From Escherichia coli (GTDB taxonomy: Bacteria; Pseudomonadota; Gammaproteobacteria; Enterobacterales; Enterobacteriaceae): DNA of 64,000 nt. Made by a program: the position numbers and the translations under genes. Each line of letters begins with the position of its first letter. Position 1 is the first letter of the stretch. The notes under the pieces are model-generated. The model did no database searches, was not told the origin of the DNA, and saw only the letters and a list, made by a program, of their open reading frames with translations. Positions 2,686 to 34,907 of this stretch are shown in pieces. The DNA lies in NCBI RefSeq assembly GCF_048403405.1, contig NZ_CP183129.1. One strand, given 5' to 3'.

Positions 2686-2867
2686 CTATTCATATCCTCA
2701 TAGATAAAAAATTGCCCTCACATTGGAGGGCAAAGAAGATTTCCAATAATCAGAACAAGTCGGATCCTGTTTAGTTACGAGCGACATTGCTCCGTGTATT
2801 CACTCGTTGGAATGAATACACAGTGCAGTGTTTATTCTGTTGTTTATGCCAAAAATAAAGGCCACCA

Positions 2868-3068
2868 TCAGGCAGCCTTGTTGTTCAGTTTACCAAGTTC
2901 TCTGGCAATCATTGCCGTCGTTCGTATTGCCCATTTATCGACATATTTCCCATCTTCCATTACAGGAAACATTTCTTCAGGCTTAACCATGCATTCCGAT
3001 TGCAGCTTGCATCCATTGCATCGCTTGAATTGTCCACACCATTGATTTTTATCAATAGTCGTAGTCAT
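2868..3068 (-). CDS. Small Cys-rich (CxxC...CxxC) putative zinc-binding protein (66 aa)
   Basis: ORF track; motif CGQFKRCNGCKLQSEC; typical small early-left phage protein. Confidence 0.45.
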   Translation of the reverse strand: MTTTIDKNQWCGQFKRCNGCKLQSECMVKPEEMFPVMEDGKYVDKWAIRTTAMIARELGKLNNKAA

Positions 3069-3146
3069 ACGGATAGTCCTGGTATTGTTCCATCACATCC
3101 TGCGGATGCTCTTCGAACTCTTCAAATTCTTCTTCCATATATCACC

Positions 3147-3473
3147 TCAAATAAGTGGTTTGCTGCCTAATTTCATTTTCTGGCTACCAACACAAGTCAC
3201 ACCCATTTCACTACGTGGCTTGCTGTACCATGTGCGCTGATTCTTGCGATCAATACGTTGCAGGTTGCTTTCAATCTGTTCGTGGTATTCAGCCAGCACT
3301 GTAAGGTCTATAGGATTCAGTGCGCTTTCTACTCGTGATTTCGGTTTGCGATTCAGCGAGAGAATAGGGCGGTTAACTGGTTTTGCGCTTACCCCAACCA
3401 ACAGGGGATTTGCTGCTTTCCATTTAGCCTGTTTCTCTGCGCGACGTTCGCGGCGGCGTGTTTGTGCATCCAT
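3147..3473 (-). CDS. N: Antitermination protein N (lambda-type, 108 aa)
   Basis: MDAQTRRRERRAEKQA.WKAANPLLVGVSAKPVNRPILSLNRKPKSRVESALNPIDLTVLAEY... matches lambda N almost residue for residue (from memory); nutL lies upstream. Confidence 0.9.
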   Translation of the reverse strand: MDAQTRRRERRAEKQAKWKAANPLLVGVSAKPVNRPILSLNRKPKSRVESALNPIDLTVLAEYHEQIESNLQRIDRKNQRTWYSKPRSEMGVTCVGSQKMKLGSKPLI

Positions 3474-3993: not shown

Positions 3994-4095
3994 TTATGCG
4001 GCTTTTTTGGTGTGTGCTGACGAGCGAGCCAGAATCTCGTTGATGAGAGATCTCAGGGTCATTGCATCTTTGTGCAGAGTGGACATGGTTTTCAT
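3994..4095 (-). CDS. 33-aa basic peptide ORF (MKTMSTLHKDAMTLRSLINEILARSSAHTKKAA), second gene of the cI-downstream cassette
   Basis: ATG with GAGG SD 7 nt upstream; stop 7 nt before the timm hairpin; under the ORF-track size cutoff; not a known lambda gene. Confidence 0.4.
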   Translation of the reverse strand: MKTMSTLHKDAMTLRSLINEILARSSAHTKKAA

Positions 4096-4164
4096 TGCGT
4101 TTCCTCGGTTTATTTTATGGTACTAGCCTAGTTCAAATAGACTATATGAAATCTTGATTTACTA

Positions 4165-4545
4165 TTAAGGCCATTGGGTTGGTGGAAGATCGTGGGTTTT
4201 TATCTGCGTATTTGCTTCCACACATTTATCATAGTCTAATTTCTCTACAGCAAGCAATAGTGATTCAGCATACATCAATCCTTGTTTGATGTTCATAACA
4301 TTTATGCTTGCACTTGCGGCATCCATATCCTTTGCTGTCTCTACCATGTGCTCAAAGCTTTGAGCAATAGAGTCAACACCGTTTTTCATCCTTGTAAACA
4401 CTAATTTTAGCTCATCAAGGCTTGGATTCGTTAGATCATACATCCCATGCATTCCATGGGCTTCGAATAACTCTGACAACGATCTAAGGGCGAAGTTCAC
4501 AGAATCAATAACTTGGTCGTACTTTTTCTTATCAAGATCATTCAT
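4165..4545 (-). CDS. 126-aa acidic protein of unknown function occupying the rexA/rexB position
   Basis: ORF track; starts 66 nt downstream of the cI stop on the same strand, AAGG SD about 11 nt upstream; no TM segment or motif recognised; visibly AT-richer than cI. Confidence 0.6.
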   Translation of the reverse strand: MNDLDKKKYDQVIDSVNFALRSLSELFEAHGMHGMYDLTNPSLDELKLVFTRMKNGVDSIAQSFEHMVETAKDMDAASASINVMNIKQGLMYAESLLLAVEKLDYDKCVEANTQIKTHDLPPTQWP

Positions 4546-13369: not shown

Positions 13370-13573
13370 ATGTACCGTATGGACAAAATCAGAGAATGGT
13401 TCAGTTACAGCTTCGGAGGACTGACTGCGATGGGTGGCATTCTCTCCCTGAATGACTGGGCTGTCATCATTGGTATTCTTTGTACTGTCGGCACATTTGG
13501 CATCAACTGGTACTACAAGCGCAAAGAGCGCGAGGACAGATTGAATGGCAATGTCACCGGCACTACGAAATAG
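13370..13573 (+). CDS. Putative holin (67 aa) with dual start (M1-Y-R-M4)
   Basis: Two hydrophobic helices ([25 protein letters not shown]), charged C-terminus; upstream hairpin CCCCTCAATGAAGGGG before the tandem ATGs; overlaps the endolysin start. Confidence 0.6.
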
Positions 13574-14048
13574 CGTAATAGCGGCGATAAGTGGCGGGGC
13601 TATTGCTATAGCATCTGTGTTAATCACTGGACCAAGTGGTAACGATGGTCTGGAAGGTGTTAGCTACATACCATACAAAGATATTGTTGGTGTATGGACT
13701 GTATGTCACGGACACACCGGAAAAGACATCATGCTCGGTAAAACGTATACCAAAGCAGAATGCAAAGCCCTCCTGAATAAAGACCTTGCCACGGTCGCCA
13801 GACAAATTAACCCGTACATCAAAGTCGATATACCGGAAACAATGCGCGGCGCTCTTTACTCATTCGTTTACAACGTGGGTGCTGGCAATTTCAGAACATC
13901 GACGCTTCTTCGCAAAATAAACCAGGGCGATATCAAAGGCGCATGTGATCAGCTACGTCGCTGGACATATGCTGGCGGTAAGCAATGGAAAGGTCTCATG
14001 ACTCGTCGTGAGATTGAGCGTGAAGTCTGTTTGTGGGGGAAACAATGA
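13545..14048 (+). CDS. SAR-type endolysin (phage-21 R-like lysozyme, 167 aa)
   Basis: N-terminal signal-anchor-release helix [17 protein letters not shown] followed by a lysozyme core ([25 protein letters not shown]...), recalled as matching phage 21 R / DLP12 RrrD. Confidence 0.85.
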
Positions 14049-14512
14049 GCAGAGTAACCGCGATTATCTCCGCTCTGGTTATCTGCATCATCGTCTGCCT
14101 GTCATGGGCTGTTAATCATTACCGTGATAACGCCATGACCTACAAAGAGCAGCGCGATAAAAAAGTCAGTGAGCTGAAGCAGGCGACCGCCACCATTACT
14201 GACATGCAGCAACGCCATCGTGCTGCTGATGCACTCGATGCTAAATACACGAAGGAGTTAGCTGATGCGAAAGCTGAAAATGATGCTCTTCGGCGCAAGC
14301 TTGATAATGGTGGCAGGGTGCTCGTCAAAGGAAAATGCCCTGTGCCATCCTCAGCCGAAACCTCCGGCGCCTCCGGCATGGGCAATGATGCCACCGTCGA
14401 ACTCTCTCCAGTTGCTGGACGAAACGTTCTCGGTGTCCGGGACGGAATTATCCGCGACCAAACAGCACTGAGAACGCTTCAGGAATACATCAGGACGCAA
14501 TGCCTTCGATGA
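14045..14512 (+). CDS. Rz: Rz i-spanin (155 aa from MSRV; ORF track lists 14033)
   Basis: [30 protein letters not shown]...[16 protein letters not shown] matches lambda Rz N-terminal two thirds. Confidence 0.85.
14265..14471 (+). CDS. Rz1: Rz1 o-spanin lipoprotein embedded in +1 frame within Rz (68 aa)
   Basis: [21 protein letters not shown]... has a lipobox (VAGC) and a proline-rich tract ([11 protein letters not shown]), like lambda Rz1. Confidence 0.75.
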
Positions 14513-26360: not shown

Positions 26361-27776
26361 ATGGCTACGTGGCAACAGGGTATTAATTCTGGTGGTTTTC
26401 TGGCTGGAATTGGTGCGCAAAATGAGAATGCGCCAAAGGCAAGCGACATTAACGCAACGCTTGGTCTGATTCGCGAAAACAATGAACTGGCTCGCTCAGG
26501 TGCAAATAACGTTGGTCTGACCGCGTTACGTGGTCTGGCTGGAGTTGCTGATATTTACAATCAGGAACAGCAACAGAAAGCTATTAGTGCGTTCAATAAG
26601 GTTCACGCTGATGCATGGGTTTCTGGTGATCCATCGGGACTATTTAAGTTTGCCCAGGAAAATCCAGCGTTTGTTGCACAGGCACAACAGGCGTTTTCAG
26701 GTCTTAATGATCAGCAACGCAACGATATGGGCGATTTAGCCATGAGGGCTAACGTCGCTCTTTCTCAGGGACCGGAAGCCTACAGTAAATTCATTACTGA
26801 CAACAAGGACAGGTTAAATCGCGTGGGGGCGAATGCTGACTGGATGATTCAGACAGGTATCCAGAATCCAGAGCAGCTATCACACATGCTGACTACTATG
26901 TCTCTCGGTGCGCTTGGACCAGAAAAGGCGTTTGCTGTTCAGGACAAGATGGCTGGTCGTGAAATTGACCGAGGCAGACTGGCAGAGACAATCCGCAGCA
27001 ATCAGGCTGGAGAAGCACTTCAGGCGAGAGGGCAAAACCTTTCCTATCAGTCAGCAATGACTGGGCACAATATCGCAGCACAACGCTTGGCTCTGGATCA
27101 GCAAGAGTTCGGGTTTAAGATGCAGCAAGCGCAGGAAAAGGCTCAGCAGTTGATTAGCGAAGCACCTAAGCTGTCAGTAAACATGGAAAAAGGCATCGAG
27201 ACGGCTGTAAACAATGCCACAGCATCATCAAACTCAGCCAATTCCATGAGTGCGCTTGCTCAACAGTTCAGAGCAGAAAAACCAACGACAGGTTTGTTCG
27301 GTAACGCACAGAACATGTTCGCAAAACTTACCGGAAGCGATACGACATTGCGTGATTTGCGCATTCGCCAAAATGCTCTTGTTAACAGTCAGGTTCTTAA
27401 ATTCCTACCTCCCGGCCCAGCAACGGATAAAGACGTTGAGATCGTTCGACAGGGTGCACCAACTGACATGGATAACCCTGAGACGGTCGCAAGATGGCTT
27501 GATGCGATGGCAAACCTTGAGCGACGAAACGCGCAGTTTAATGAGTTTAAAGCCGAGTGGATGAGCGCGAATGGCAATCCAGGACAATCGCGTAATGGCG
27601 GTCAGATATTGGGGTTGGATGTTAAAAAAGGTGAATCATTGGGGAGTGCCGTTAAGCGGTATATGTCAATGAATACTGACGCAGCGCCAGCACAAGATTC
27701 GACACCTTCAGGAGAACCACGGAATCAGGTTGGATCATATACCTCAAAATCAGGCATTCAATTTACGGTGGAATGA
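26361..27776 (+). CDS. Ejection protein (P22 gp20-like, 471 aa)
   Basis: Size identical to P22 gp20; gene order. Confidence 0.65.
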
Positions 27777-29614
27777 TGAAAGTAACTGCAAACGGTAAGA
27801 CATTTACCTTTCCTGATGGTACGAGCACCGAAGATATTGGCACCGCCATTGATGAGTATTTTGCTGGTCAGGCTGTTCAGCAACAAACAGTTAATCAGGC
27901 CAATAATGCACCAACACGGGAAGAACCATCATTGATGCAACAAGCTGGCGATTGGCTCACAGGTGGTCAAAGTGCAGGGCAAATTGCAGAACAGGCTGGT
28001 CGTGGTCTGGTAAACATACCATTTGACGTATTGCAGGGTGGCGCAAGTCTGATTAATGCAATCAGTCAGGGGCTTGGTGGGCCAAAAGTATTAGATGATG
28101 TCTATCGTCCAGTCGATCGACCGACAGACCCTTATGCGCAAGCTGGAGAAACAATTGGCGGGTATTTAGTTCCAGGAGTTGGAACGGCAGGAAGCATGGC
28201 TATTGGATCACTGGCAGAGGCCGCAAATCAGAAAGGCGATTTCGCACAAAATGCAGCTAAAAATGCCGGAGTTAACCTTGCCGCTCAGGGTGTTCTTTCC
28301 GCAGCAGCAAAGGGAATAGGGCGTGGAATAACGGCTATAAAAGGTGATATTGCGCCAGAAGTGGCGAAGAAAATTGCCACATCAGAATCGATGGGCGTGA
28401 CACCAATGACATCTGATGTTATCCCGCCGAAAAATGCTTTCACTCGCGGCCTTACTCAGGATGCCGAGGGGGCTTTGCTCGGGACAGGCTCAAAGCGAGC
28501 GGAGCAATATGCAACGCGTAGTAAGTTGGTAAGTAATTATTTTGACCGTTTTGGTGAGTACAACCCTGATGATGTGGTGAAATCTCTGACCACCACGTTA
28601 AGGGGGCGGAAGGATGCCGCTGGCGCTGTTATCAATGACGTCACCAATAAAATGGGTAATGCCGCAGTTGATACCACAAATACCATGAATGCTCTGAATA
28701 CAGCGATCGCAAGACAGGAACGGCTTGGGACTTCAGCCAATCAAAGCCTGCTTACATCCTTGCGTAACCTACGTGAAGAATTAGCAAACCCTGCAACTGA
28801 TTTGGATGTTACGTTTGATCTCTTGCGTCAGCACAGAACAGCATTTAGATCTAATGTTCAGGGAGATGCTATGGTCTTCCCCAACCAGGCAAAAGCAGCT
28901 ACCAATATGGTAGAGAATGCAATGTCAAAAGACCTTCGTAACGCAGTTGCTAAAAACCTCGGTGCATCAGACGCAGCAAAATACCTTAAAGCAAATTCCG
29001 ATTATGCAAACGTTTATAATAAGGTGCTTAATAAAAACATTGCTAACAAGCTCAACAAGGCAAGCAGTGAAGCCAGTCCTGAACTTATAAATACCGTTGT
29101 ATTAAGCAGAAAACCATCTGACGTAAAACGAATCTGGAGCGCATTGGATAATAAAGGGAAAGATGCTATGCGTGCAGCTTATGTCAGCAAAATAGCGGAA
29201 AAGGCCGGTGACTCTCCAGCCAAGTTCATCACTGAAGTTAATAAGCTGAAATCTCAGTCAGGCGGTGAAATTTACAACACTATTTTTTCTGGAAAGCACA
29301 TGAAAGAGCTTGATGCTCTTCATGAAGTTCTACAGCAAACAGCAAGGTCAGACACCGCAAATGTAGTAACTCAGACGGGGCAATCACAAGCCAACAGGAT
29401 AAGGACGATTGGCGCAACTGCGACTCTTGGCGTATCAATGGGGCTTGAGTCTGGCTTTGGTGCAATGATGCGTTTGTATGAGTCTAAAGCAGCAAGAAAC
29501 ATGCTTCTCCGCCTTGCAAACGTCAAGCCTGGAACTCCGGCATATGAGCGAGCGTTAAATCAGGCTGCTAACGCCGTTCGCCCTCTCCTAACTAACGAAG
29601 CTACCAGGCAGTAG
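27773..29614 (+). CDS. Ejection protein (P22 gp16-like, 613 aa)
   Basis: Size (P22 gp16 is 609 aa); gene order. Confidence 0.65.
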
Positions 29615-29633
29615 AAATGAACGCCAAGGAAGG

Positions 29634-30038
29634 CTATTTAATTCTCTTTTCAATGGCTGCAATTATTGCTTTTCCTGATGTTTCAGGAGATTTTGTAGCC
29701 ATATAAGACGAAAAAATCATGTCGGTCATTCTTTCATAACTTACTATTTCCCACTTAGCCAATGCATGGGACAGTTTGTAGTTGTCATCAGTTAGTGCCC
29801 TTATGGAATTTTTTAAGTGTTTATTCTCTTCTGTTAATCGCGCAATTTTTGTATCAATTTCATGTGAGCGATCTAATTCCTTAACCTGTTTCTTGAGGGC
29901 AGCTAACCCTGCATATAGTACGCAACAGGATATCCCAAGAGCGAGTACAACTATTTCTAACACACCAACCTCCTTAGTTTTGAGCAGGATACCAGATGAT
30001 AATGTGTAGTTGGAGTAGCGCGGTTGTAATGCAAGCAT
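29634..30038 (-). CDS. Membrane-anchored coiled-coil protein (134 aa from ATG 30038; alternative GTG start at 29963 with AAGGAGG SD gives 110 aa)
   Basis: One TM helix (LEIVVLALGISCCVLYAGLAAL) followed by heptad-rich coiled coil; divergent from the 30120 gene; AT-rich. Confidence 0.5.
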   Translation of the reverse strand: MLALQPRYSNYTLSSGILLKTKEVGVLEIVVLALGISCCVLYAGLAALKKQVKELDRSHEIDTKIARLTEENKHLKNSIRALTDDNYKLSHALAKWEIVSYERMTDMIFSSYMATKSPETSGKAIIAAIEKRIK

Positions 30039-30117
30039 TTTGTTTTAGCTTTATGCTTGCTTGTATGTGTGTACAGTGTATATAATGCAAGCATACATCA
30101 CAACAAAGGTGCTTGCA
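30030..30117. promoter_or_regulatory. Divergent promoter region with four 8-bp half-sites TGCAAGCA/TGCTTGCA in two inverted pairs around TTGCTT-N18-TATAAT
   Basis: Sites at 30030..30037, 30053..30060, 30085..30093 and 30110..30117; -10 TATAAT at 30081..30086; the last site overlaps the SD/ATG of the 30120 gene. Confidence 0.5.
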
Positions 30118-30119
30118 TT

Positions 30120-31088
30120 ATGACTGAAAAGAAAAGTGGCGAAGGGAAAGCTAAGGGCGGGATCGCTCGCGCAAAGTCGCTGACTAAAGAGCAGCGTTCT
30201 GAAATAGCAAAGAAAGCAGCTGCTGCAAGATGGAAAAGTAAGATTCTCAGGGCAACTCATCGTGGTAACTTTTTAGATGATTTTGGCATTGATGCTGAAT
30301 GTTATGTACTGGATGACGAGTCGAAAACTGTCGTTGTTACGAAAACTGGATTATCTCAGTTGCTAGGGATTGGTGAACATGCCAGGGATTTAGATCAACT
30401 GCTTGGCGCTCAGTATATGAGCAAATACCGAGATCTAGAATTGCAGCGAAAAATGGAAAATCCCTATAAATTTCAACTTACTTCGAAGTCTAAAACCGTT
30501 CATCAAGCGTTAGGTTATGACATTACAGCAATTGTTGATATTGGTAGGGCACTAATAGAAGCCAAAGATAATGACGATCTACCACAATCACGGTTAAAGG
30601 CAGCCGCCGCAGCACAGAGACTTATTAATGCCTCCGCTAAGGCGGGAATTAAGGGGGTTGCGTATGCGCTTGCTGGTTATCGTCCAGAAGTTCAGGCTGT
30701 CATTGACGAGTTCAAAGCGTTTGTTCGTGAAGAGGCTCGTCAATATGAAAAGGAATTTCCAGATGAGCTATACGAGGAGTGGTATCGACTGTACGGCCTG
30801 AATAGGCCAGAGAAAGGACGGCCTATTCGTTTTGGGCAGCTAACCAACATGCAGATATACACCCCGCTAGCAAAGAGTAAAGGTAAAATCCTTGAACAAA
30901 TTAGAGCCAGCCGAGACGAGAACGGAAAACAATCTGATAAGTTGCATCTGTTCCTTTCTGAAATTGGTGTCAAGGCTTTGCGTCAGCATATCGGTAAGCT
31001 TCTTGGTGTCGCAGCGATGAGTGAGACAAGAGAAGAATACGAAAAAGGAATAGAAAAGGTTTTCGGAAGAATGAAACCAGAAATCTAA
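30120..31088 (+). CDS. Unknown moron protein (322 aa) with basic Lys/Ala-rich N-terminus
   Basis: Start at the internal ATG 30120 of the ORF-track entry 30057..31088; N-terminus MTEKKSGEGKAKGGIARAKSLTKEQRSEIAKKAAAARW suggests nucleic-acid binding; followed by a strong terminator. Confidence 0.6.
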   Translation: MTEKKSGEGKAKGGIARAKSLTKEQRSEIAKKAAAARWKSKILRATHRGNFLDDFGIDAECYVLDDESKTVVVTKTGLSQLLGIGEHARDLDQLLGAQYMSKYRDLELQRKMENPYKFQLTSKSKTVHQALGYDITAIVDIGRALIEAKDNDDLPQSRLKAAAAAQRLINASAKAGIKGVAYALAGYRPEVQAVIDEFKAFVREEARQYEKEFPDELYEEWYRLYGLNRPEKGRPIRFGQLTNMQIYTPLAKSKGKILEQIRASRDENGKQSDKLHLFLSEIGVKALRQHIGKLLGVAAMSETREEYEKGIEKVFGRMKPEI

Positions 31089-31092
31089 TTAT

Positions 31093-31118
31093 GAAACCCA
31101 CCGTCAGGTGGGTTTTTT
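31093..31118 (+). terminator. Rho-independent terminator
   Basis: AAACCCACCgtcaGGTGGGTTTTTTGT immediately after the 30120..31088 stop. Confidence 0.55.
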
Positions 31119-31355
31119 GTACAAATCCTTCAGCGTATCAAACACCATCTTCTTAACAAGTTCAGACTGCTCATCAGCGATGCGTTCCGCATCGTCTCGA
31201 TAGCCTGAAATTTTGGATGGCTTTGATACAGCATCAGTCACTATCTGAACTAATTCTGAATTAAGAGAGCGGCCATTGGATTTGGCTCGCTGTTTTAGTT
31301 TTTCCTTTAATTCGTAAGGTAGCCGCAGATTAAATTGCGGGTCATCTCTTCCCAT
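31104..31355 (-). CDS. mnt: Mnt repressor (Arc/MetJ-family ribbon-helix-helix, 83 aa)
   Basis: MGRDDPQFNLRLPYELKEKLKQRAKSNGRSLNSELVQIVTDAVSKPS...DAERIADEQSELVKKMVFDTLKDLYKK closely matches P22 Mnt (from memory). Confidence 0.85.
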   Translation of the reverse strand: MGRDDPQFNLRLPYELKEKLKQRAKSNGRSLNSELVQIVTDAVSKPSKISGYRDDAERIADEQSELVKKMVFDTLKDLYKKPT

Positions 31356-31418
31356 TCTTGATGCCTCACTTTTGTAAGTGGATCGGCATCATATGATCTA
31401 CTGGTTATATCCACAATA

Positions 31419-31433
31419 AGACCACTGTGGTCT
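31419..31433. promoter_or_regulatory. Mnt-operator-like palindrome AGACCACtGTGGTCT
   Basis: Near-perfect 15-bp palindrome between mnt and the tailspike gene; resembles the P22 Omnt core GGTCCACGGTGGACC. Confidence 0.5.
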
Positions 31434-31490
31434 CAATGACGCATTGCCGTAGCCATGCTGCGGCGATTCCTTGTATCTGGAGCAAATTAA

Positions 31491-33569
31491 ATGACAGACA
31501 TTACAGCCAATGTTGTAGTGAGCATGCCTTCGCAACTCTTCACTATGGCGCGTTCTTTTAAAGCCGTAGCCAATGGCAAAATTTATATCGGAAAAATTGA
31601 CACTGACCCGGTAAATCCTGAAAACCAGATTCAGGTTTATGTGGAGAATGAGGATGGTTCTCACGCTCCTGTATCGCAACCAATCATCATTAACGCTGCT
31701 GGTTACCCGGTATATAACGGACAGATTGCCAAGTTCGTAACTGTGCAAGGCCATTCTATGGCTGTTTATGATGCGTATGGTGCGCAGCAGTTTTATTTTC
31801 CTAATGTGCTGAAGTATGACCCTGATCAGTTTCAGAAGAGGTTGGCATCCTTTGATGATGGTGATGGGGATGAATTAGTGTCGGTGAAACAACCATTCCC
31901 CGGAGCAGCAAATCAAACTCAACACCAAAAGAACCAACAAATCATTGATGTTCTTGACTTCGGTGCTCATCCATCGAATGCTGACAATAAAGTAGCTCTG
32001 CAATTTGCGCTAGATGCAATATATAGCATTGGAGGAGGTACACTACAGTTTTCACTACCAGGCATATATACTTTGCTTTCTGAGTTGCAAATAAAATCAA
32101 ATACTCACCTAAAGATGACTGATGGCGTAACCATTAAACGTAATTTTTCTAATGACGTCATGCTGAGAATAAGCCCTAATACTGGCACTAACATTAAAAT
32201 AACAGGCGGAATACTAGATGGAGGAGGACAAGACCACCCTACAGATCCTTTTGACATCATTGCAGCCTCCTCACCAAGAAATCTTTCTATTGTTGGAGTA
32301 ACATTTCTTGATGTAGTCGATTTTCATGCTGTAGATATTGCTGACGGGCAAGGGGTGATTATAAGAGACTGTAAGTTTCTTGGCTTCAAACCACTTTCCA
32401 ACCGAAATTATTCAGAAGCGATCCAGTTAGATCCGGGGATTGAATCTCTTGGCGATTATTACCCAAACATCAATGTTCTTGTTGATAACTGTTATTTTGG
32501 TTCAAATCCACAAAATACCACCACTGGGTTTGGGGCGTGGGGGGCGGGGGTTGGGAACCATGCTAATTCATATGGGAATCAGGACAAAAATATAAGGGTC
32601 ATAAACTGCAGGTTCGATGGAATGCTCTTTGCCGGGGTAAGGGTTTTCAACTGGTATGATTGGGTGGTTAGCGGATGCTCTTTCTATAACAGTACCGCGC
32701 GAGGAGTTCATGTAACCCCATTCCCATCATCATCAAAACCACAGGGGGCAAGGAGGGGGCGCATTGTTGGCAATTATTTTGAAGGCGTTAGATCCCCGAT
32801 TCTTCTGGCTGCACCTACATATCCATATACAGATACATCAGATGCATTTCATGAAGATATCGTAATATCCAACAATTCCATGTTTATTACAGAGTCTCAA
32901 TCATATGCAGTAGACGCAAGATGGGTTTCAGGACTAACTGTCACTGGAAACACAGCAAGAGGCGGAATCGGTTTTTTCAAAGGTGATTTTATTAACAAAT
33001 CAATCATCTCTAATAATGAATACGATTCAGGAACATCAAGTTCTTTATGGATTTCTGAAACTAATGCAGAAGAATTTATAGGGTCTGGTTTTTCGCATGA
33101 TGTTGTAATTTCTAGCAACATCTTTAGAAATATTTCCCTGCATGGGATTCATATTAATGGTAAATATTCAAATGTTACTATTCAATCAAACATTATAGTT
33201 GGGGTTTCTACCGCAGATAATAACCATAATGGCATACGAATTGACTCTGGTGCAGAAAATGTAATTGTTAGTTCAAATCAAATTCGTGATGGCGTTGCAA
33301 ATAATAAACCATTAGTTGGTATATTTGCTACATCAAGCTGTAAGAGCGTGTCATTTATAGGGAATGTTTCATTTGGAACATCAGCCACACAGAATAATCA
33401 AGCTACAGATAAAAGCTCACTTGTGATATTTGGGCAAGAAGGCAACCCAACATCTAGCGGAGTTGGAGCACCAGTTGGTTCTATTTACACTCGTTCTGAT
33501 GGAGGTGGAAATACAGTACTTTATATAAAGGAAAGCAACACAAATGCTACAGGTTGGGTTAATAAGTAA
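31491..33569 (+). CDS. Tailspike protein (692 aa): P22 gp9-like head-binding N-terminus, divergent beta-helix receptor-binding domain
   Basis: First ~110 aa match P22 gp9 ([11 protein letters not shown]...[33 protein letters not shown]...[14 protein letters not shown]...NVLKYDPDQ); remainder is unrelated, AT-rich and Gly/Asn/Ser-rich. Confidence 0.85.
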
Positions 33570-33713: not shown

Positions 33714-34907
33714 TCACTCCACCTTTTCATCAAGCCAGTCCGCCCACCACTGCATCATTTCTCTGCGCTTATCGAGATACTGAGCATGGTTGTAAATTCC
33801 ACGTACAGATCCGCCGTTGGCATGTGCCAGTTGCACTTCAATGGCGTCGGCAGGCCATTCGTGCTCGTTCATAATCGTGCTGAATTCATGCCTGAATCCG
33901 TGACCGCTTTCCAGACCTTCATAGCCGATTTGTTTGATCACAAGTAGCACCGCGTTCTCGCAGATTGGCTTCTTCTTATCGTTGCGCCCGGAAAAAACAA
34001 ACTCTGATACTGGTTTAGTGATTGAGCTTAGTGTAGTGAGAAGTTCAACCACCTGGTCTGACATCGGGACAACATGAATTTTGCGTCCCTTCATCACACT
34101 GGCGTCGATGGTGATAATCCTGTTTTCAAAATCGACGTTCTTCCATAGCATGGAACGAAGCTCTTTTGTTCTTAGGGCTGTGTAGCGTAAAACTTTGGTC
34201 GCAATGAGCGATACGATACTTCCTGAAAATGTTGCAAGTGCTTTGTTGAATGCCGAGATCTGGTCGGCAGGTAAAAACGGGAAGTTCTTCTTGCGGTATC
34301 CCTTCATGGCGTCAGCAAGGTCAGGTGCCGGGTTATATTTAGCCCTACCAGTGACAATAGCGTAACGGAAAACCTCGCCGCATCTTCTGCGGGCTTTGTT
34401 GGCTCGCTCCATTGCACCGCGATCTTCAAATCTGCGGATTACTTCCAGCAGTTGCATCGGCTCAATATCCTGAATTTCAAGGCCGCCGATGATAGGTAAA
34501 ATGTCGTCATCAAACATTTTTGCAAGTTCAGTTGCATAGCCTACTGACCAGACTTGCTTCTTGTGCTCGTACCATTCCTTGTAAATCGCACTAAAGGAAT
34601 TGTTGTTAGACGAAGCCTTTTTCGCTTTTACCGGATCGATGCCAACCGAGATGTCTTTCCTCGCGGTCCATGCCTTATCCCTTGCCTCCTGCAAAGTCAT
34701 AAGCGGATATTTTCCGACGGTCAGGATTTTCTCCTTACCGTCAATCTTGTAGCGAAGCTGCCATACCTTTTTCCCTGATACAGGGACATAAAGGTACAGG
34801 CCATTACCATCGAGTAGGCGGTATGGTTTTTCTTTCGGCTTTGCTGCTTCAATCTGCTTAACGGTGAGCATGGGTAAAAATCCGGTGGGTAAAATTATTT
34901 TATCCAC
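33714..34907 (-). CDS. intS: Tyrosine integrase, P4-family (IntS-like; 397 aa, or 385 aa from MLTVKQ at 34871)
   Basis: N-terminus MLTVKQIEAAKPKEKPYRLLDGNGLYLYV typical of P4/IntS-type integrases; C-terminal HxxR...Y catalytic region; adjacent to the tRNA-Arg 3' end and transcribed away from it. Confidence 0.9.
   Translation of the reverse strand: MDKIILPTGFLPMLTVKQIEAAKPKEKPYRLLDGNGLYLYVPVSGKKVWQLRYKIDGKEKILTVGKYPLMTLQEARDKAWTARKDISVGIDPVKAKKASSNNNSFSAIYKEWYEHKKQVWSVGYATELAKMFDDDILPIIGGLEIQDIEPMQLLEVIRRFEDRGAMERANKARRRCGEVFRYAIVTGRAKYNPAPDLADAMKGYRKKNFPFLPADQISAFNKALATFSGSIVSLIATKVLRYTALRTKELRSMLWKNVDFENRIITIDASVMKGRKIHVVPMSDQVVELLTTLSSITKPVSEFVFSGRNDKKKPICENAVLLVIKQIGYEGLESGHGFRHEFSTIMNEHEWPADAIEVQLAHANGGSVRGIYNHAQYLDKRREMMQWWADWLDEKVE

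What the first reader, a model, noticed from the sequence alone, without database searches (positions are those of the whole stretch)
29634..30038. Membrane-anchored coiled-coil protein divergent from the 322-aa moron gene
The product has a single N-terminal TM helix followed by ~80 residues of heptad-rich coiled coil, an architecture shared by i-spanins, FtsB/DivIC-type septal proteins and some superinfection-exclusion proteins. The prophage already has Rz/Rz1, and the gene sits at the position of P22 sieA, so an exclusion or envelope-targeting role is plausible. Start-site ambiguity (ATG 30038 versus GTG 29963 with perfect AAGGAGG SD) is itself notable.
Basis: partly seen in the sequence, partly recalled or inferred. 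Interest (0 to 1): 0.5.

Follow-up and report, generated by a model that had tools for sequence, protein, structure and literature searches.

The report
Small membrane gene in P22 sieA slot
This is a real but uncharacterised 109-residue inner-membrane protein gene. It sits in an E. coli P22-like prophage exactly where phage P22 keeps its superinfection-exclusion gene sieA, so it is probably an alternative anti-phage or envelope "moron", and its function is untested.

Summary
The ORF exists, but the true gene is the shorter one. It starts at GTG 29963 behind a perfect AAGGAGG and encodes 109 aa (29634-29963, minus strand). The 25-codon extension to ATG 30038 is an accident of a mosaic junction.

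The protein belongs to PHROG 8100, a tiny family of unknown function found only in P22-like (pro)phages of Salmonella, E. coli and Klebsiella. It always lies tail-to-tail with ejection gene 16.

Its parts are an N-terminal TM helix (res 4-22), a basic juxtamembrane stretch, a four-to-five-heptad leucine zipper (~res 36-68) and a strongly conserved non-zipper C-terminal module (res 70-107). So the coiled coil is about 35-45 residues, not ~80. Charge distribution predicts N-out/C-in, the opposite of i-spanins and FtsB.

The gene shares P22 sieA's 34-bp leader (TGGTATCCTGCnCAAAACTAAGGAGGTTGGTGTG). In 121 sampled viral contigs that leader precedes at least 11 unrelated ORF families (12 counted groups), nearly all membrane or exported proteins. 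Only SieA has a known function.

Cassette type assorts freely with upstream DNA but is linked to the gp16 C-terminal type.

Best reading: a prophage-expressed inner-membrane exclusion or defence factor analogous to SieA, not homologous to it. That function is inferred, not shown.

The parts
29634..29963 (-). True coding sequence: GTG start, 109 aa plus stop. Member of PHROG 8100, identical in sequence to the product of the 109-aa CDS that PGAP annotates as WP_000890120.1.
   Evidence: PHROG 8100 aligns over its full length to residues 26-134 of the long ORF, E 1.1e-69. PGAP calls the 109-aa CDS in other genomes. dN/dS is well below 1.
29964..30038 (-). Spurious 25-codon 5' extension (MLALQPRYSNYTLSSGILLKTKEVG) reaching ATG 30038. 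Not part of the protein.
   Evidence: It is absent where the gene has other upstream contexts, because similarity starts at 29994. No SD precedes the ATG. The ATG lies inside a repeated 12-mer.
29961..29994 (-). Conserved 34-bp cassette linker TGGTATCCTGCTCAAAACTAAGGAGGTTGGTGTG. It contains an extended -10-like element TGGTATCCT (29986-29994), the SD AAGGAGG (29969-29975) and the GTG start (29961-29963). On the other strand it provides ...GCAGGATACCAG-ATG for a divergent start at 29996.
   Evidence: The same leader sits in front of P22 sieA. In 103 distinct contexts, information content drops sharply outside -31..+3, and 98 of 103 keep TGnTAnnnT. Promoter function is inferred, not shown.
29898..29954 (-). 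Transmembrane helix, residues 4-22 (IVVLALGISCCVLYAGLAA).
   Evidence: Kyte-Doolittle 19-residue mean is 2.43. It is helical in the AF2 model. The N-tail has 0 K/R and the following 15 residues have 2-5 K/R in all 12 homologues.
29760..29858 (-). Leucine-zipper coiled coil, about residues 36-68. d positions: I36, L43, L50, L57, L64. a positions: I40, N47, I54, N61, L68.
   Evidence: Invariant and near-invariant columns in alignment A2. The only PDB profile matches are the GCN4, Fos and Jun zippers over residues 20-68, E about 0.02. AF2 gives one continuous helix 2-90, pLDDT 84.6.
29643..29756 (-). Conserved C-terminal module KWEIxSYExMTDMIFxSYMATKSPETSGxxIIAAIExR (residues 70-107). It is the most constrained part of the protein and the presumed effector or interaction surface.
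   Evidence: Alignments A1, A2 and A4. pN is about 0.11 against pS about 0.7. Synonymous changes across SPETSG in the Klebsiella-type homologues show the constraint is on the protein, not on the DNA hairpin.
27773..29614 (+). P22 gene 16 homologue (ejection protein, 613 aa), convergent with the target. Its C-terminus is the P22 type (...[27 protein letters not shown]).
   Evidence: In the sampled loci each cassette family goes with one gp16 C-terminal type.
30027..30121 (.). Divergent intergenic control region of the P63C gene. It holds three exact copies of TGCTTGCATTA: 30027-30037 and 30083-30093 on the minus strand, 30110-30120 on the plus strand. Two copies form a perfect 12-nt inverted repeat around a consensus TATAAT at 30081-30086 (plus strand).
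   Evidence: There are no other exact copies in 64 kb.
30120..31088 (+). Neighbouring 322-aa P63C-domain gene (PHROG 2384, unknown function) with its own intrinsic terminator at 31093-31119. It is not a partner of the target.
   Evidence: The P63C-type upstream region occurs in about 170 E. coli records, nearly all lacking the target; at most three of the 185 matching records carry both.
31104..31355 (-). Mnt/Arc-family repressor gene (83 aa), a remnant of the immI region. No arc or ant gene is present.
   Evidence: PHROG 795 and 3178 matches.

Best explanation
The locus is a single-gene accessory cassette ("moron") occupying the sieA slot of a P22-like prophage.

Shown:
- The real product is 109 aa, starting at GTG 29963.
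- It has one N-terminal TM helix, a leucine zipper of about 33 residues and a highly conserved 38-residue C-terminal module.
- The family is confined to P22-like prophages and always lies convergent with gene 16.
- It is under purifying selection.
- It shares sieA's 34-bp leader.

Inferred:
- The protein inserts N-out/C-in in the inner membrane and dimerises through the zipper.
- It is expressed from the repressed prophage. The expression module would be carried in the linker itself: an extended -10-like TGGTATCCT, a short leader, a strong SD and the GTG.
- Its conserved cytoplasmic C-terminal module engages a conserved partner. That partner would be either the membrane or cytoplasmic end of an incoming phage's gp16/gp20 DNA conduit, or a host factor that conduit needs. 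Engagement would block DNA entry, which is superinfection exclusion analogous to SieA, or HK97 gp15.
For: Start and gene reality.

Architecture.

Slot identity with sieA:
- P22 sieA has the same leader ggtatcctgcacaaaactaaggaggttggtGTG.
- Both genes lie directly after gene 16 on the opposite strand.

Slot fidelity across genera:
- Homologues in Klebsiella quasipneumoniae (53% identity) and in an unassigned Logan contig (51%), and the 34% identical P0017, all lie between gene 16 and the tailspike.
- In L132 the gene is 58 nt downstream of, and co-oriented with, an Arc/Mnt-family gene. P22 mnt is described as a maintenance-of-lysogeny gene.

The slot is a hotspot for envelope proteins:
- 121 leader-containing loci carry 12 counted ORF groups (at least 11 unrelated families, since hkcB-a and hkcB-b share a C-terminus). 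Eleven have a TM helix or a signal-peptide-like N-terminus.
- SieA is the only one with a known function.

Accessory status.

Precedents:
[quoted passage not shown] Its escape mutations map to the C-terminal regions of gp16 and gp20. Only 22 of 66 P22-like phages have sieA (PMC10883804).
- HK97 gp15 is a small inner-membrane moron protein that blocks genome entry (PMC3594210).

Linkage: each cassette family goes with one gp16 C-terminal type, and the target shares the P22 type with SieA.
Against: - There is no experimental or expression evidence for this family.
- There is no homology to SieA or to any known exclusion or defence protein. PADLOC and NCBIfam gave nothing significant.
- The slot also holds apparently secreted proteins and one soluble protein, so sharing the slot does not prove sharing a function.
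- The linkage to the gp16 C-terminus is confounded by physical adjacency.
- The topology rests on the positive-inside rule only.
- No consensus sigma-70 promoter was found by the scanner near the gene.
- The tandem-dimer AF2 model was uninformative, pLDDT 49.
Confidence: 0.45

Rival explanations
1. It is a membrane-anchored defence protein that acts after DNA entry, as an abortive-infection sensor or effector. For example, the zipper dimer could be triggered by a phage protein to disturb the membrane, rather than blocking entry.
For: It is a small bitopic membrane protein in a prophage moron region. Its conserved, probably cytoplasmic, C-terminal module could sense an intracellular phage product. 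The slot contains many unrelated cassettes, as defence hotspots do.
Against: There is no match to PADLOC models beyond a coiled-coil artefact (LmuB, E 0.0014). It is a single small gene with no enzymatic or pore-forming features. The only characterised occupant of the slot works at entry (PMC10883804).
Confidence: 0.15
2. It is a lysogenic-conversion factor that changes host physiology (envelope stress response, cell division, transport or colonisation) and has no direct anti-phage role.
For: Morons have diverse host-directed roles (PMC3594210). Weak, non-significant resemblance to DivIC, ZapB and bZIP coiled coils. Other cassettes in the slot look like secreted or periplasmic proteins.
Against: The family is strictly confined to P22-like prophages and to one slot next to the ejection genes. 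No bacterial chromosomal homologues were found among 1.84 billion representatives. The divisome-like matches are below threshold, and the predicted topology is opposite to FtsB/DivIC.
Confidence: 0.15
3. It serves the phage's own life cycle, for example by modulating late-operon read-through into the tailspike gene, lysis timing, or the phage's own DNA delivery or ejection-protein handling.
For: It is antisense to late-operon read-through toward gene 9. A terminator-like hairpin on the plus strand lies inside its 3' end at 29671-29690. The ant moron of P22 is thought to influence tailspike levels (PMC2629481). Tight linkage to the gp16 C-terminal type.
Against: The hairpin is not conserved in the Klebsiella-type homologues while the peptide is. 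The gene is absent from most P22-like phages and fragmented or partial in three phage records. Its constraint is at protein level.
Confidence: 0.1
4. It is an i-spanin-like or FtsB/DivIC-like periplasmic coiled-coil protein acting on the envelope or septum.
For: The architecture is superficially similar: N-terminal TM helix plus coiled coil. Weak matches to Rz-like spanin PHROGs (E 0.023-0.054) and Pfam DivIC (E 0.015).
Against: All matches are non-significant. A bona fide Rz (PHROG 13, E 1e-73) sits beside the endolysin at 14033-14512. There is no embedded or adjacent Rz1-type lipoprotein. The gene lies outside the lysis cassette and on the opposite strand. The charge bias predicts N-out/C-in. 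The best-conserved part is not the coiled coil.
Confidence: 0.03
5. It is a non-functional or decaying ORF left over by recombination.
For: It is unannotated in the SE1 and ST160 records. The tblastn matches in the SW-70 and ST-29 records are split into several pieces, and the ST-87 match is partial. The family is very small.
Against: pN is much lower than pS at saturating synonymous divergence. The ORF is intact with conserved length, SD and start across Salmonella, E. coli, a Klebsiella quasipneumoniae genome and more distant homologues from unassigned contigs, down to 34% identity.
Confidence: 0.02

Closest known systems
P22 SieA (superinfection exclusion protein; PHROG 7745; types A-C of Leavitt et al. 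2024, PMC10883804)
   Same: Identical genomic slot: immediately after gene 16, opposite strand, between genes 16 and 9. Identical 34-bp leader, SD and GTG start. Small membrane protein (inner-membrane localisation is shown for SieA, predicted for the target). Accessory. Linked to the same P22-type gp16 C-terminus. In both, the conserved motif is predicted to be cytoplasmic: for SieA according to the paper, for the target by charge bias.
   Different: No detectable sequence similarity; they belong to separate PHROGs. SieA is 164 aa and predicted to be multi-spanning (TMHMM in PMC10883804), with the motif FxRYPxEAxxFNK. The target is 109 aa with one TM helix, a leucine zipper and a different conserved module. 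SieA's function is demonstrated; the target's is not.
HK620 HkcB / epsilon34 gp14 / 611R6 URC09199 (PHROG 5962, unknown function)
   Same: Same slot and same leader. Same length (107-109 aa). Same layout: an N-terminal TM helix with no N-terminal K/R, followed by a helical coiled coil.
   Different: BLASTP finds no alignment. hhalign gives 34% probability, over the coiled coil only. The conserved C-terminus is different (SWLxNVGxIATSTRDKLNPSMDD). It is linked to a different gp16 C-terminal type. The two are therefore analogues, or extremely diverged alleles.
HK97 gp15 (moron-encoded inner-membrane superinfection exclusion protein; PMC3594210)
   Same: A small inner-membrane protein encoded by a moron inserted within a virion-gene operon. 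It is expressed from the prophage and blocks genome entry in a way that depends on features of the incoming phage's delivery apparatus.
   Different: A different phage type (siphovirus tail operon). It is related to the YebO family, whereas the target has no bacterial chromosomal homologues. No sequence relationship between the two was tested or is expected.
Rz-type i-spanins and FtsB/DivIC septal proteins
   Same: Bitopic membrane protein with an N-terminal TM helix followed by a coiled coil.
   Different: They have the opposite topology (N-in, periplasmic coiled coil). They have a different genomic context and partners (Rz1; FtsL/FtsQ). Profile matches are not significant. The resident Rz is elsewhere in the prophage.

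Membership tests
PHROG 8100 (unknown function) | Full-length match to the family profile | tested here: met
   E 1.1e-69, residues 26-134 of the long ORF against profile positions 1-109 of 109.
SieA (PHROG 7745; types A-C) | Sequence homology to SieA, including the motif FxRYPxEAxxFNK | tested here: not met
   No SieA PHROG hit at E <= 0.1. The motif is absent from the sequence. SieA itself hits PHROG 7745 at 1.7e-108.
SieA (PHROG 7745; types A-C) | Multi-spanning inner-membrane topology | tested here: not met
   Only one hydrophobic segment (residues 4-22), with the rest helical and polar.
SieA (functional class: exclusion gene of the gene 16 - gene 9 slot) | Position between gene 16 and gene 9 of a P22-like prophage, opposite strand, with the sieA leader | tested here: met
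SieA (functional class) | Blocks DNA injection by P22-like phages | not testable with these tools
   Needs plating, K+ efflux and lysogenisation assays as in PMC10883804.
Rz-type i-spanin | Significant match to spanin profiles | tested here: not met
   PHROG 739 and 5151 at E 0.023 and 0.054. NCBIfam gave nothing for the target.
Rz-type i-spanin | Located in the lysis cassette with an embedded or adjacent o-spanin (Rz1) lipoprotein gene | tested here: not met
   The lysis cassette is at about 13545-14512 with its own Rz. The target is 15 kb away on the opposite strand. No lipobox is conserved: the Cys residues are absent in P0007-P0011, and P0012 and P0017 have one Cys at a different position.
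Rz-type i-spanin / FtsB-DivIC | N-in/C-out topology with a periplasmic coiled coil | tested here: inconclusive
   The positive-inside count predicts the opposite: 0 K/R in the N-tail and 2-5 K/R after the TM helix in 12 of 12 homologues. No dedicated topology predictor or experiment was available.
FtsB/DivIC (Pfam PF04977) | Pfam match above threshold | tested here: not met
   i-Evalue 0.015, score 15.5.
HkcB-type (PHROG 5962) | Detectable homology | tested here: not met
   PHROG 5962 at E 0.02. BLASTP finds no alignment. hhalign probability is 34.5% over 36 coiled-coil columns.
Moron (Juhala/Hendrix sense) | Present or absent, or replaced, between conserved flanking genes in related phages | tested here: met
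   The region is described as the 'ant moron' in PMC2629481.
Moron (Juhala/Hendrix sense) | Its own promoter and terminator, and expression from the prophage | tested here: inconclusive
   There is only a conserved extended -10-like element in the linker. The scanner found no sigma-70 consensus. There is no terminator after the gene. No expression data are available.

The most novel reading that the evidence does not exclude
The gene 16 - gene 9 junction of P22-like phages is a dedicated, rapidly exchanging hotspot. A 34-bp portable expression linker (extended -10, SD and GTG) is plugged onto at least 11 unrelated small envelope-protein cassette families. Each would be a distinct superinfection-exclusion specificity, co-travelling and co-evolving with the gp16 C-terminal module that determines sensitivity. 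On this reading the target family (PHROG 8100) would be the founding member of a new class of exclusion protein: a bitopic, N-out/C-in leucine-zipper dimer that blocks the ejection-protein conduit from the cytoplasmic face of the inner membrane.
Probability: 0.25. Interest if true: 0.6.

Novelty: new variant of a known kind. Interest (0 to 1): 0.42.

Why it matters
According to Leavitt et al. 2024, only about a third of sequenced P22-like phages carry sieA. What the others carry in its place has not been studied.

If this family and the other families sharing the sieA leader are alternative exclusion proteins, they would give a panel of natural inhibitors of the poorly understood gp7/gp20/gp16 trans-envelope DNA conduit. 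They would also explain why gp16 and gp20 are among the most variable virion genes.

The test is cheap and already established: a single-copy insertion at galK followed by plating of P22-like phages.

On the practical side, the result corrects a mis-called start. The 134-aa annotation is used in E. coli MB50 and, for a different cassette, in phage 611R6. The result also shows that the gene is missing from the SE1 and ST160 annotations.

Tried and rejected
- Pfam, NCBIfam and PADLOC scans gave only sub-threshold coiled-coil noise.
- Foldseek of the AF2 monomer against the PDB gave no match with E < 1. A single long helix is uninformative for this purpose.
- A PDB profile search returned only leucine zippers, at E about 0.02. 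I used this only as support for a zipper, not as homology.
- An AF2 model of a tandem dimer (two copies joined by a 60-residue Gly/Ser linker, with a paired alignment) had pLDDT 49 and pTM 0.29, so I discarded it.
- A profile search of all window ORFs for paralogues, or for mimicry of gp7, gp20 or gp16, found nothing.
- Rfam found no RNA family in 29000-32000 above threshold.
- Lipoprotein (Cor, Ltp or o-spanin-like) was rejected. The 'GISC' sequence is not a canonical lipobox, its Cys residues are not conserved in P0007-P0011 (P0012 and P0017 have a single Cys elsewhere), and there is no positively charged n-region.
- A functional pair with the P63C gene was rejected. That upstream region occurs in about 170 E. 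coli records, nearly all without the target, and the target mostly has other upstream neighbours.
- Conservation of SPETSG caused by the plus-strand terminator-like hairpin was rejected, because the homologues carry synonymous, stem-breaking changes there.
- Literature searches for hkcB and for WP_000890120 found nothing relevant.
Full report
**Context**

The window is a P22-like (Lederbergvirus-type) prophage in E. coli. The closest complete genome is strain MB50, at 99.8% identity over the finding.

Around the finding the gene order is:
- gp20 homologue, 26361-27776 (+)
- gp16 homologue, 27773-29614 (+)
- the target ORF, 29634-30038 (-)
- a 322-aa P63C-domain gene, 30120-31088 (+)
- an Mnt/Arc-family repressor gene, 31104-31355 (-)
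- the tailspike, 31491-33569 (+)
- the integrase, 33714-34907 (-)

The prophage's own endolysin and Rz-like spanin are at 13545-14512.

**The observation**

The 134-codon ATG ORF is real as an ORF, but the gene is shorter. Five lines of evidence agree on GTG 29963.

- PHROG 8100 has 109 positions and aligns end to end with residues 26-134 only, E 1.1e-69.
- In other E. coli genomes PGAP annotates the 109-aa protein WP_000890120.1 from the GTG. There the upstream DNA is different, and the start codon of a divergent gene lies only 30 nt away.
- Similarity to 13 Salmonella P22-like phages begins at window 29994, which is 44 nt downstream of the ATG.
- Homologues of 34-53% identity, in Klebsiella and in other prophages, keep the AAGGRGG-N5-start arrangement with no upstream extension.
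- The GTG has a perfect AAGGAGG five nucleotides upstream, whereas ATG 30038 has no SD.

ATG 30038 is part of a 12-mer, ATGCTTGCATTA. The 11-nt core of this 12-mer (TGCTTGCATTA) occurs three times within 30027-30121 and nowhere else exactly in the 64 kb. It therefore belongs to the control region of the neighbouring P63C gene.

The same spurious ATG has been used to annotate a different cassette in phage vB_EcoP-611R6.

**The protein**

- Residues 4-22 form a strong hydrophobic helix, Kyte-Doolittle 2.43.
- AlphaFold2, using an 11-sequence alignment, gives one helix over residues 2-90, a loop at 91-95 and a helix at 96-108, with mean pLDDT 84.6.
- The family alignment shows a canonical zipper. 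L43, L50, L57 and L64 are invariant at d positions. I40, N47, I54 and N61 occupy a positions.
- The only PDB profile matches are the GCN4, Fos and Jun zippers over residues 20-68, at E about 0.02.

Asn at a positions favours parallel, in-register dimers. That is established coiled-coil knowledge and was not tested here.

The best-conserved part is not the coiled coil. It is residues 70-107, KWEIxSYExMTDMIFxSYMATKSPETSGxxIIAAIExR. Against the Klebsiella-type homologues this part has pN about 0.11 and pS about 0.7. The TM-plus-zipper part has pN about 0.45.

All 12 homologues have no K/R in the 0-4-residue N-tail and 2-5 K/R in the 15 residues after the TM helix. By the positive-inside rule this predicts N-out/C-in, which places the zipper and the conserved module in the cytoplasm. 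That is the opposite of i-spanins and FtsB/DivIC.

**Distribution**

The family is tiny.
- A word-indexed search of 5.8 billion proteins found 14 clusters.
- A full HMM search of 1.84 billion representatives found about five true relatives.
- The gene is in 16 of 5,426 complete E. coli genomes, with copies at least 99.4% identical to the window.
- It is in 13 phage records, all Salmonella P22-like. It is unannotated in SE1 and ST160. The tblastn matches in SW-70 and ST-29 are split into several pieces and the ST-87 match is partial.

Every homologue with readable context lies convergent with gene 16, between gene 16 and the tailspike. This includes the Klebsiella quasipneumoniae copy, an unassigned contig, and the 34%-identical P0017. 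In the P0017 locus the gene is 58 nt downstream of, and co-oriented with, an Arc/Mnt-family gene.

This refutes the "conserved virion or ejection component" alternative and shows a strictly slot-bound accessory gene.

**The slot**

P22 sieA is preceded by ggtatcctgcacaaaactaaggaggttggtGTG, the same leader as the target.

I scanned IMG/VR for the last 21 nt of this leader.
- The ORFs that start at the GTG fall into 12 counted groups, that is at least 11 unrelated families (hkcB-a and hkcB-b share a C-terminus).
- In 121 instances the counts were: SP129 21, the target 17, hkcB-a 15, MKKKF62 14, SieA 11, MYISL106 11, 2TM75 9, hkcB-b 8, sol140 7, TM149 4, SP99 3 and SP68 1.
- Eleven of the twelve have a TM helix or a signal-peptide-like N-terminus.
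- They map to separate PHROGs or to none, and only SieA has a known function.

Across 103 distinct contexts, conservation is a sharp 34-bp block from -31 to +3: TGGTATCCTGCnCAAAACTAAGGAGGTTGGTGTG. It decays to background on both sides.

Upstream sequence classes assort freely with the cassettes. The linker is therefore the 5' recombination junction.

The linker keeps TGnTAnnnT in 98 of 103 contexts. Diverged homologues keep equivalent versions at the same distance from the SD: TGGTAAAGT, TGATAGAGT and TGATATGCT. I read this as an extended -10 promoter. If that is right, the linker is a self-contained expression module. This is an inference. The 85-bp fragment that sufficed for P22 sieA function includes the block (PMC10883804).

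On the 3' side the picture is different. Among loci where the convergent gene 16 end was parsed cleanly (a few rows mis-parsed), each cassette family is found with a single gp16 C-terminal type.
- The target, SieA-A, SP129 and MKKKF62 go with ...[20 protein letters not shown]....
- The two hkcB types, TM149 and sol140 go with ...GNEEFQRLARAGIVASLSG....
- Distant target homologues are also next to P22-type gp16 C-termini, even where the rest of gp16 differs (612-781 aa, with or without an SLT domain).

Leavitt et al. mapped SieA-escape mutations to the C-terminal regions of gp16 and gp20. The linkage is therefore suggestive, but simple physical adjacency explains it equally well.

**Local transcription units**

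The P63C gene has a consensus TATAAT at 30081-30086 flanked by the 12-mer repeats. It also has a strong intrinsic terminator at 31093-31119, dG -16.2 kcal/mol, z-score -3.2. This terminator overlaps the end of mnt and folds on both strands.

Pmnt transcripts therefore probably stop before reaching the target, which needs its own promoter. No terminator follows the target.

The sigma-70 scanner found nothing convincing in the intergenic region. That is consistent with a promoter lacking a -35 element, or with low expression. [quoted passage not shown]

**Interpretation**

Shown:
- the gene, its start and its architecture
- purifying selection
- slot fidelity
- a shared leader with sieA
- accessory status

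Inferred:
- inner-membrane N-out/C-in topology
- dimerisation through the zipper
- expression from the prophage
- the function itself

The most economical function is a SieA-analogous block of incoming P22-like phage DNA at the inner membrane. HK97 gp15 is a further precedent for a small moron-encoded membrane protein that does this (PMC3594210). I put this at about 0.45.

The rivals are post-entry abortive defence at about 0.15, host-directed lysogenic conversion at about 0.15, and a role in the phage's own cycle at about 0.10. The i-spanin/FtsB-like reading and a dead ORF are each at or below 0.03.

**Comparison with known families**

The target is a member of PHROG 8100 (unknown function).

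It is not a member of the SieA family. There is no homology, it has one TM helix rather than several, and the SieA motif is absent.

It is not demonstrably related to HkcB or epsilon34 gp14. BLASTP finds nothing and hhalign gives 34% probability. It does share their slot, length and layout.

The variability of this "ant moron" region was described in 2008 (PMC2629481). The 2024 SieA paper notes that only 22 of 66 P22-like phages carry sieA. Neither paper addresses what the alternatives do. In the passages I read, neither describes the 34-bp linker or the linkage to the gp16 C-terminus.

**Verdict**

This is a genuine, mis-started, uncharacterised moron gene. It is an allelic replacement of sieA and plausibly a new kind of exclusion protein. 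The gene itself is ordinary: a database hypothetical protein. Its context gives a precise and cheap experimental test, so I rate it of moderate interest.

Noticed in passing
window 29961-29994 and loci L012-L131: A 34-bp linker (TGGTATCCTGCnCAAAACTAAGGAGGTTGGTGTG) is shared by 12 counted cassette groups (at least 11 unrelated families) in P22-like (pro)phages. Upstream DNA assorts freely, but each cassette family is tied to one gp16 C-terminal type. The second base of codon 5 is T in all 103 contexts, so residue 5 is always hydrophobic.
   Followed up: yes
window 30027-30121: There are three exact copies of TGCTTGCATTA, two of them forming a perfect 12-nt inverted repeat with a 16-nt spacer. 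They bracket a consensus TATAAT (30081-30086, + strand) and abut the P63C start codon (30120). This is probably an operator/promoter arrangement for the P63C gene. The regulator is unknown.
   Followed up: partly
window 29996-30085 (+): A 29-codon Cys-rich hydrophobic ORF (MIMCSWSSAVVMQAFCFSFMLACMCVQCI) starts at the ATG that the linker positions for divergent genes (...GCAGGATACCAG-ATG). In other contexts a real 121-aa gene starts there. Here it may be a remnant or a small protein.
   Followed up: no
L006 (P22 NC_002371) locus 2862-3230, + strand of P22; L004 2636-3001: The divergent neighbour of sieA and of the target in most contexts is a 121-aa protein with an HExxH motif (HECAH). It corresponds to SE1 gp64 and WP_000757526. 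It is not annotated as a CDS in the P22 RefSeq record.
   Followed up: no
window 31093-31119: A strong hairpin with a T-run (dG -16.2 kcal/mol, z-score -3.2) sits between the P63C stop and the mnt stop and folds on both strands. It is probably a bidirectional terminator. It gave a sub-threshold Rfam sroH hit.
   Followed up: partly
window 29671-29690 (+): A terminator-like hairpin on the late-operon strand lies inside the target's SPETSG-coding region, 57 nt after the gene 16 stop. It is not conserved in the Klebsiella-type homologues. It could attenuate late read-through toward the tailspike in this lineage.
   Followed up: partly
window 31104-31490: The Mnt homologue is present, but arc, ant and sar are absent. 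The Pmnt/Pant-equivalent region directly abuts the tailspike gene, so this is an orphan repressor in a reduced immI region.
   Followed up: no
L002 (ON470589.1) 4060-4464; L003 (MB50) 3063-3467: Two database annotations, an hkcB-type gene in phage 611R6 and the target in MB50, use the same spurious upstream ATG and report 134 aa instead of 109. The SE1 and ST160 records lack the gene altogether.
   Followed up: yes
protein P0014 (JGI, 71 aa): A predicted protein fuses a gp20 fragment ([35 protein letters not shown]) to the last 34 residues of the target. It is probably a deletion/inversion derivative or an assembly chimera.
   Followed up: no
window 27773-29614 versus P22 gp16: At the position of P22 gp16 P546, which is a SieA-escape site (P546S), the window's gp16 reads ATATLG instead of AIPTLG. 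The significance is unknown.
   Followed up: no
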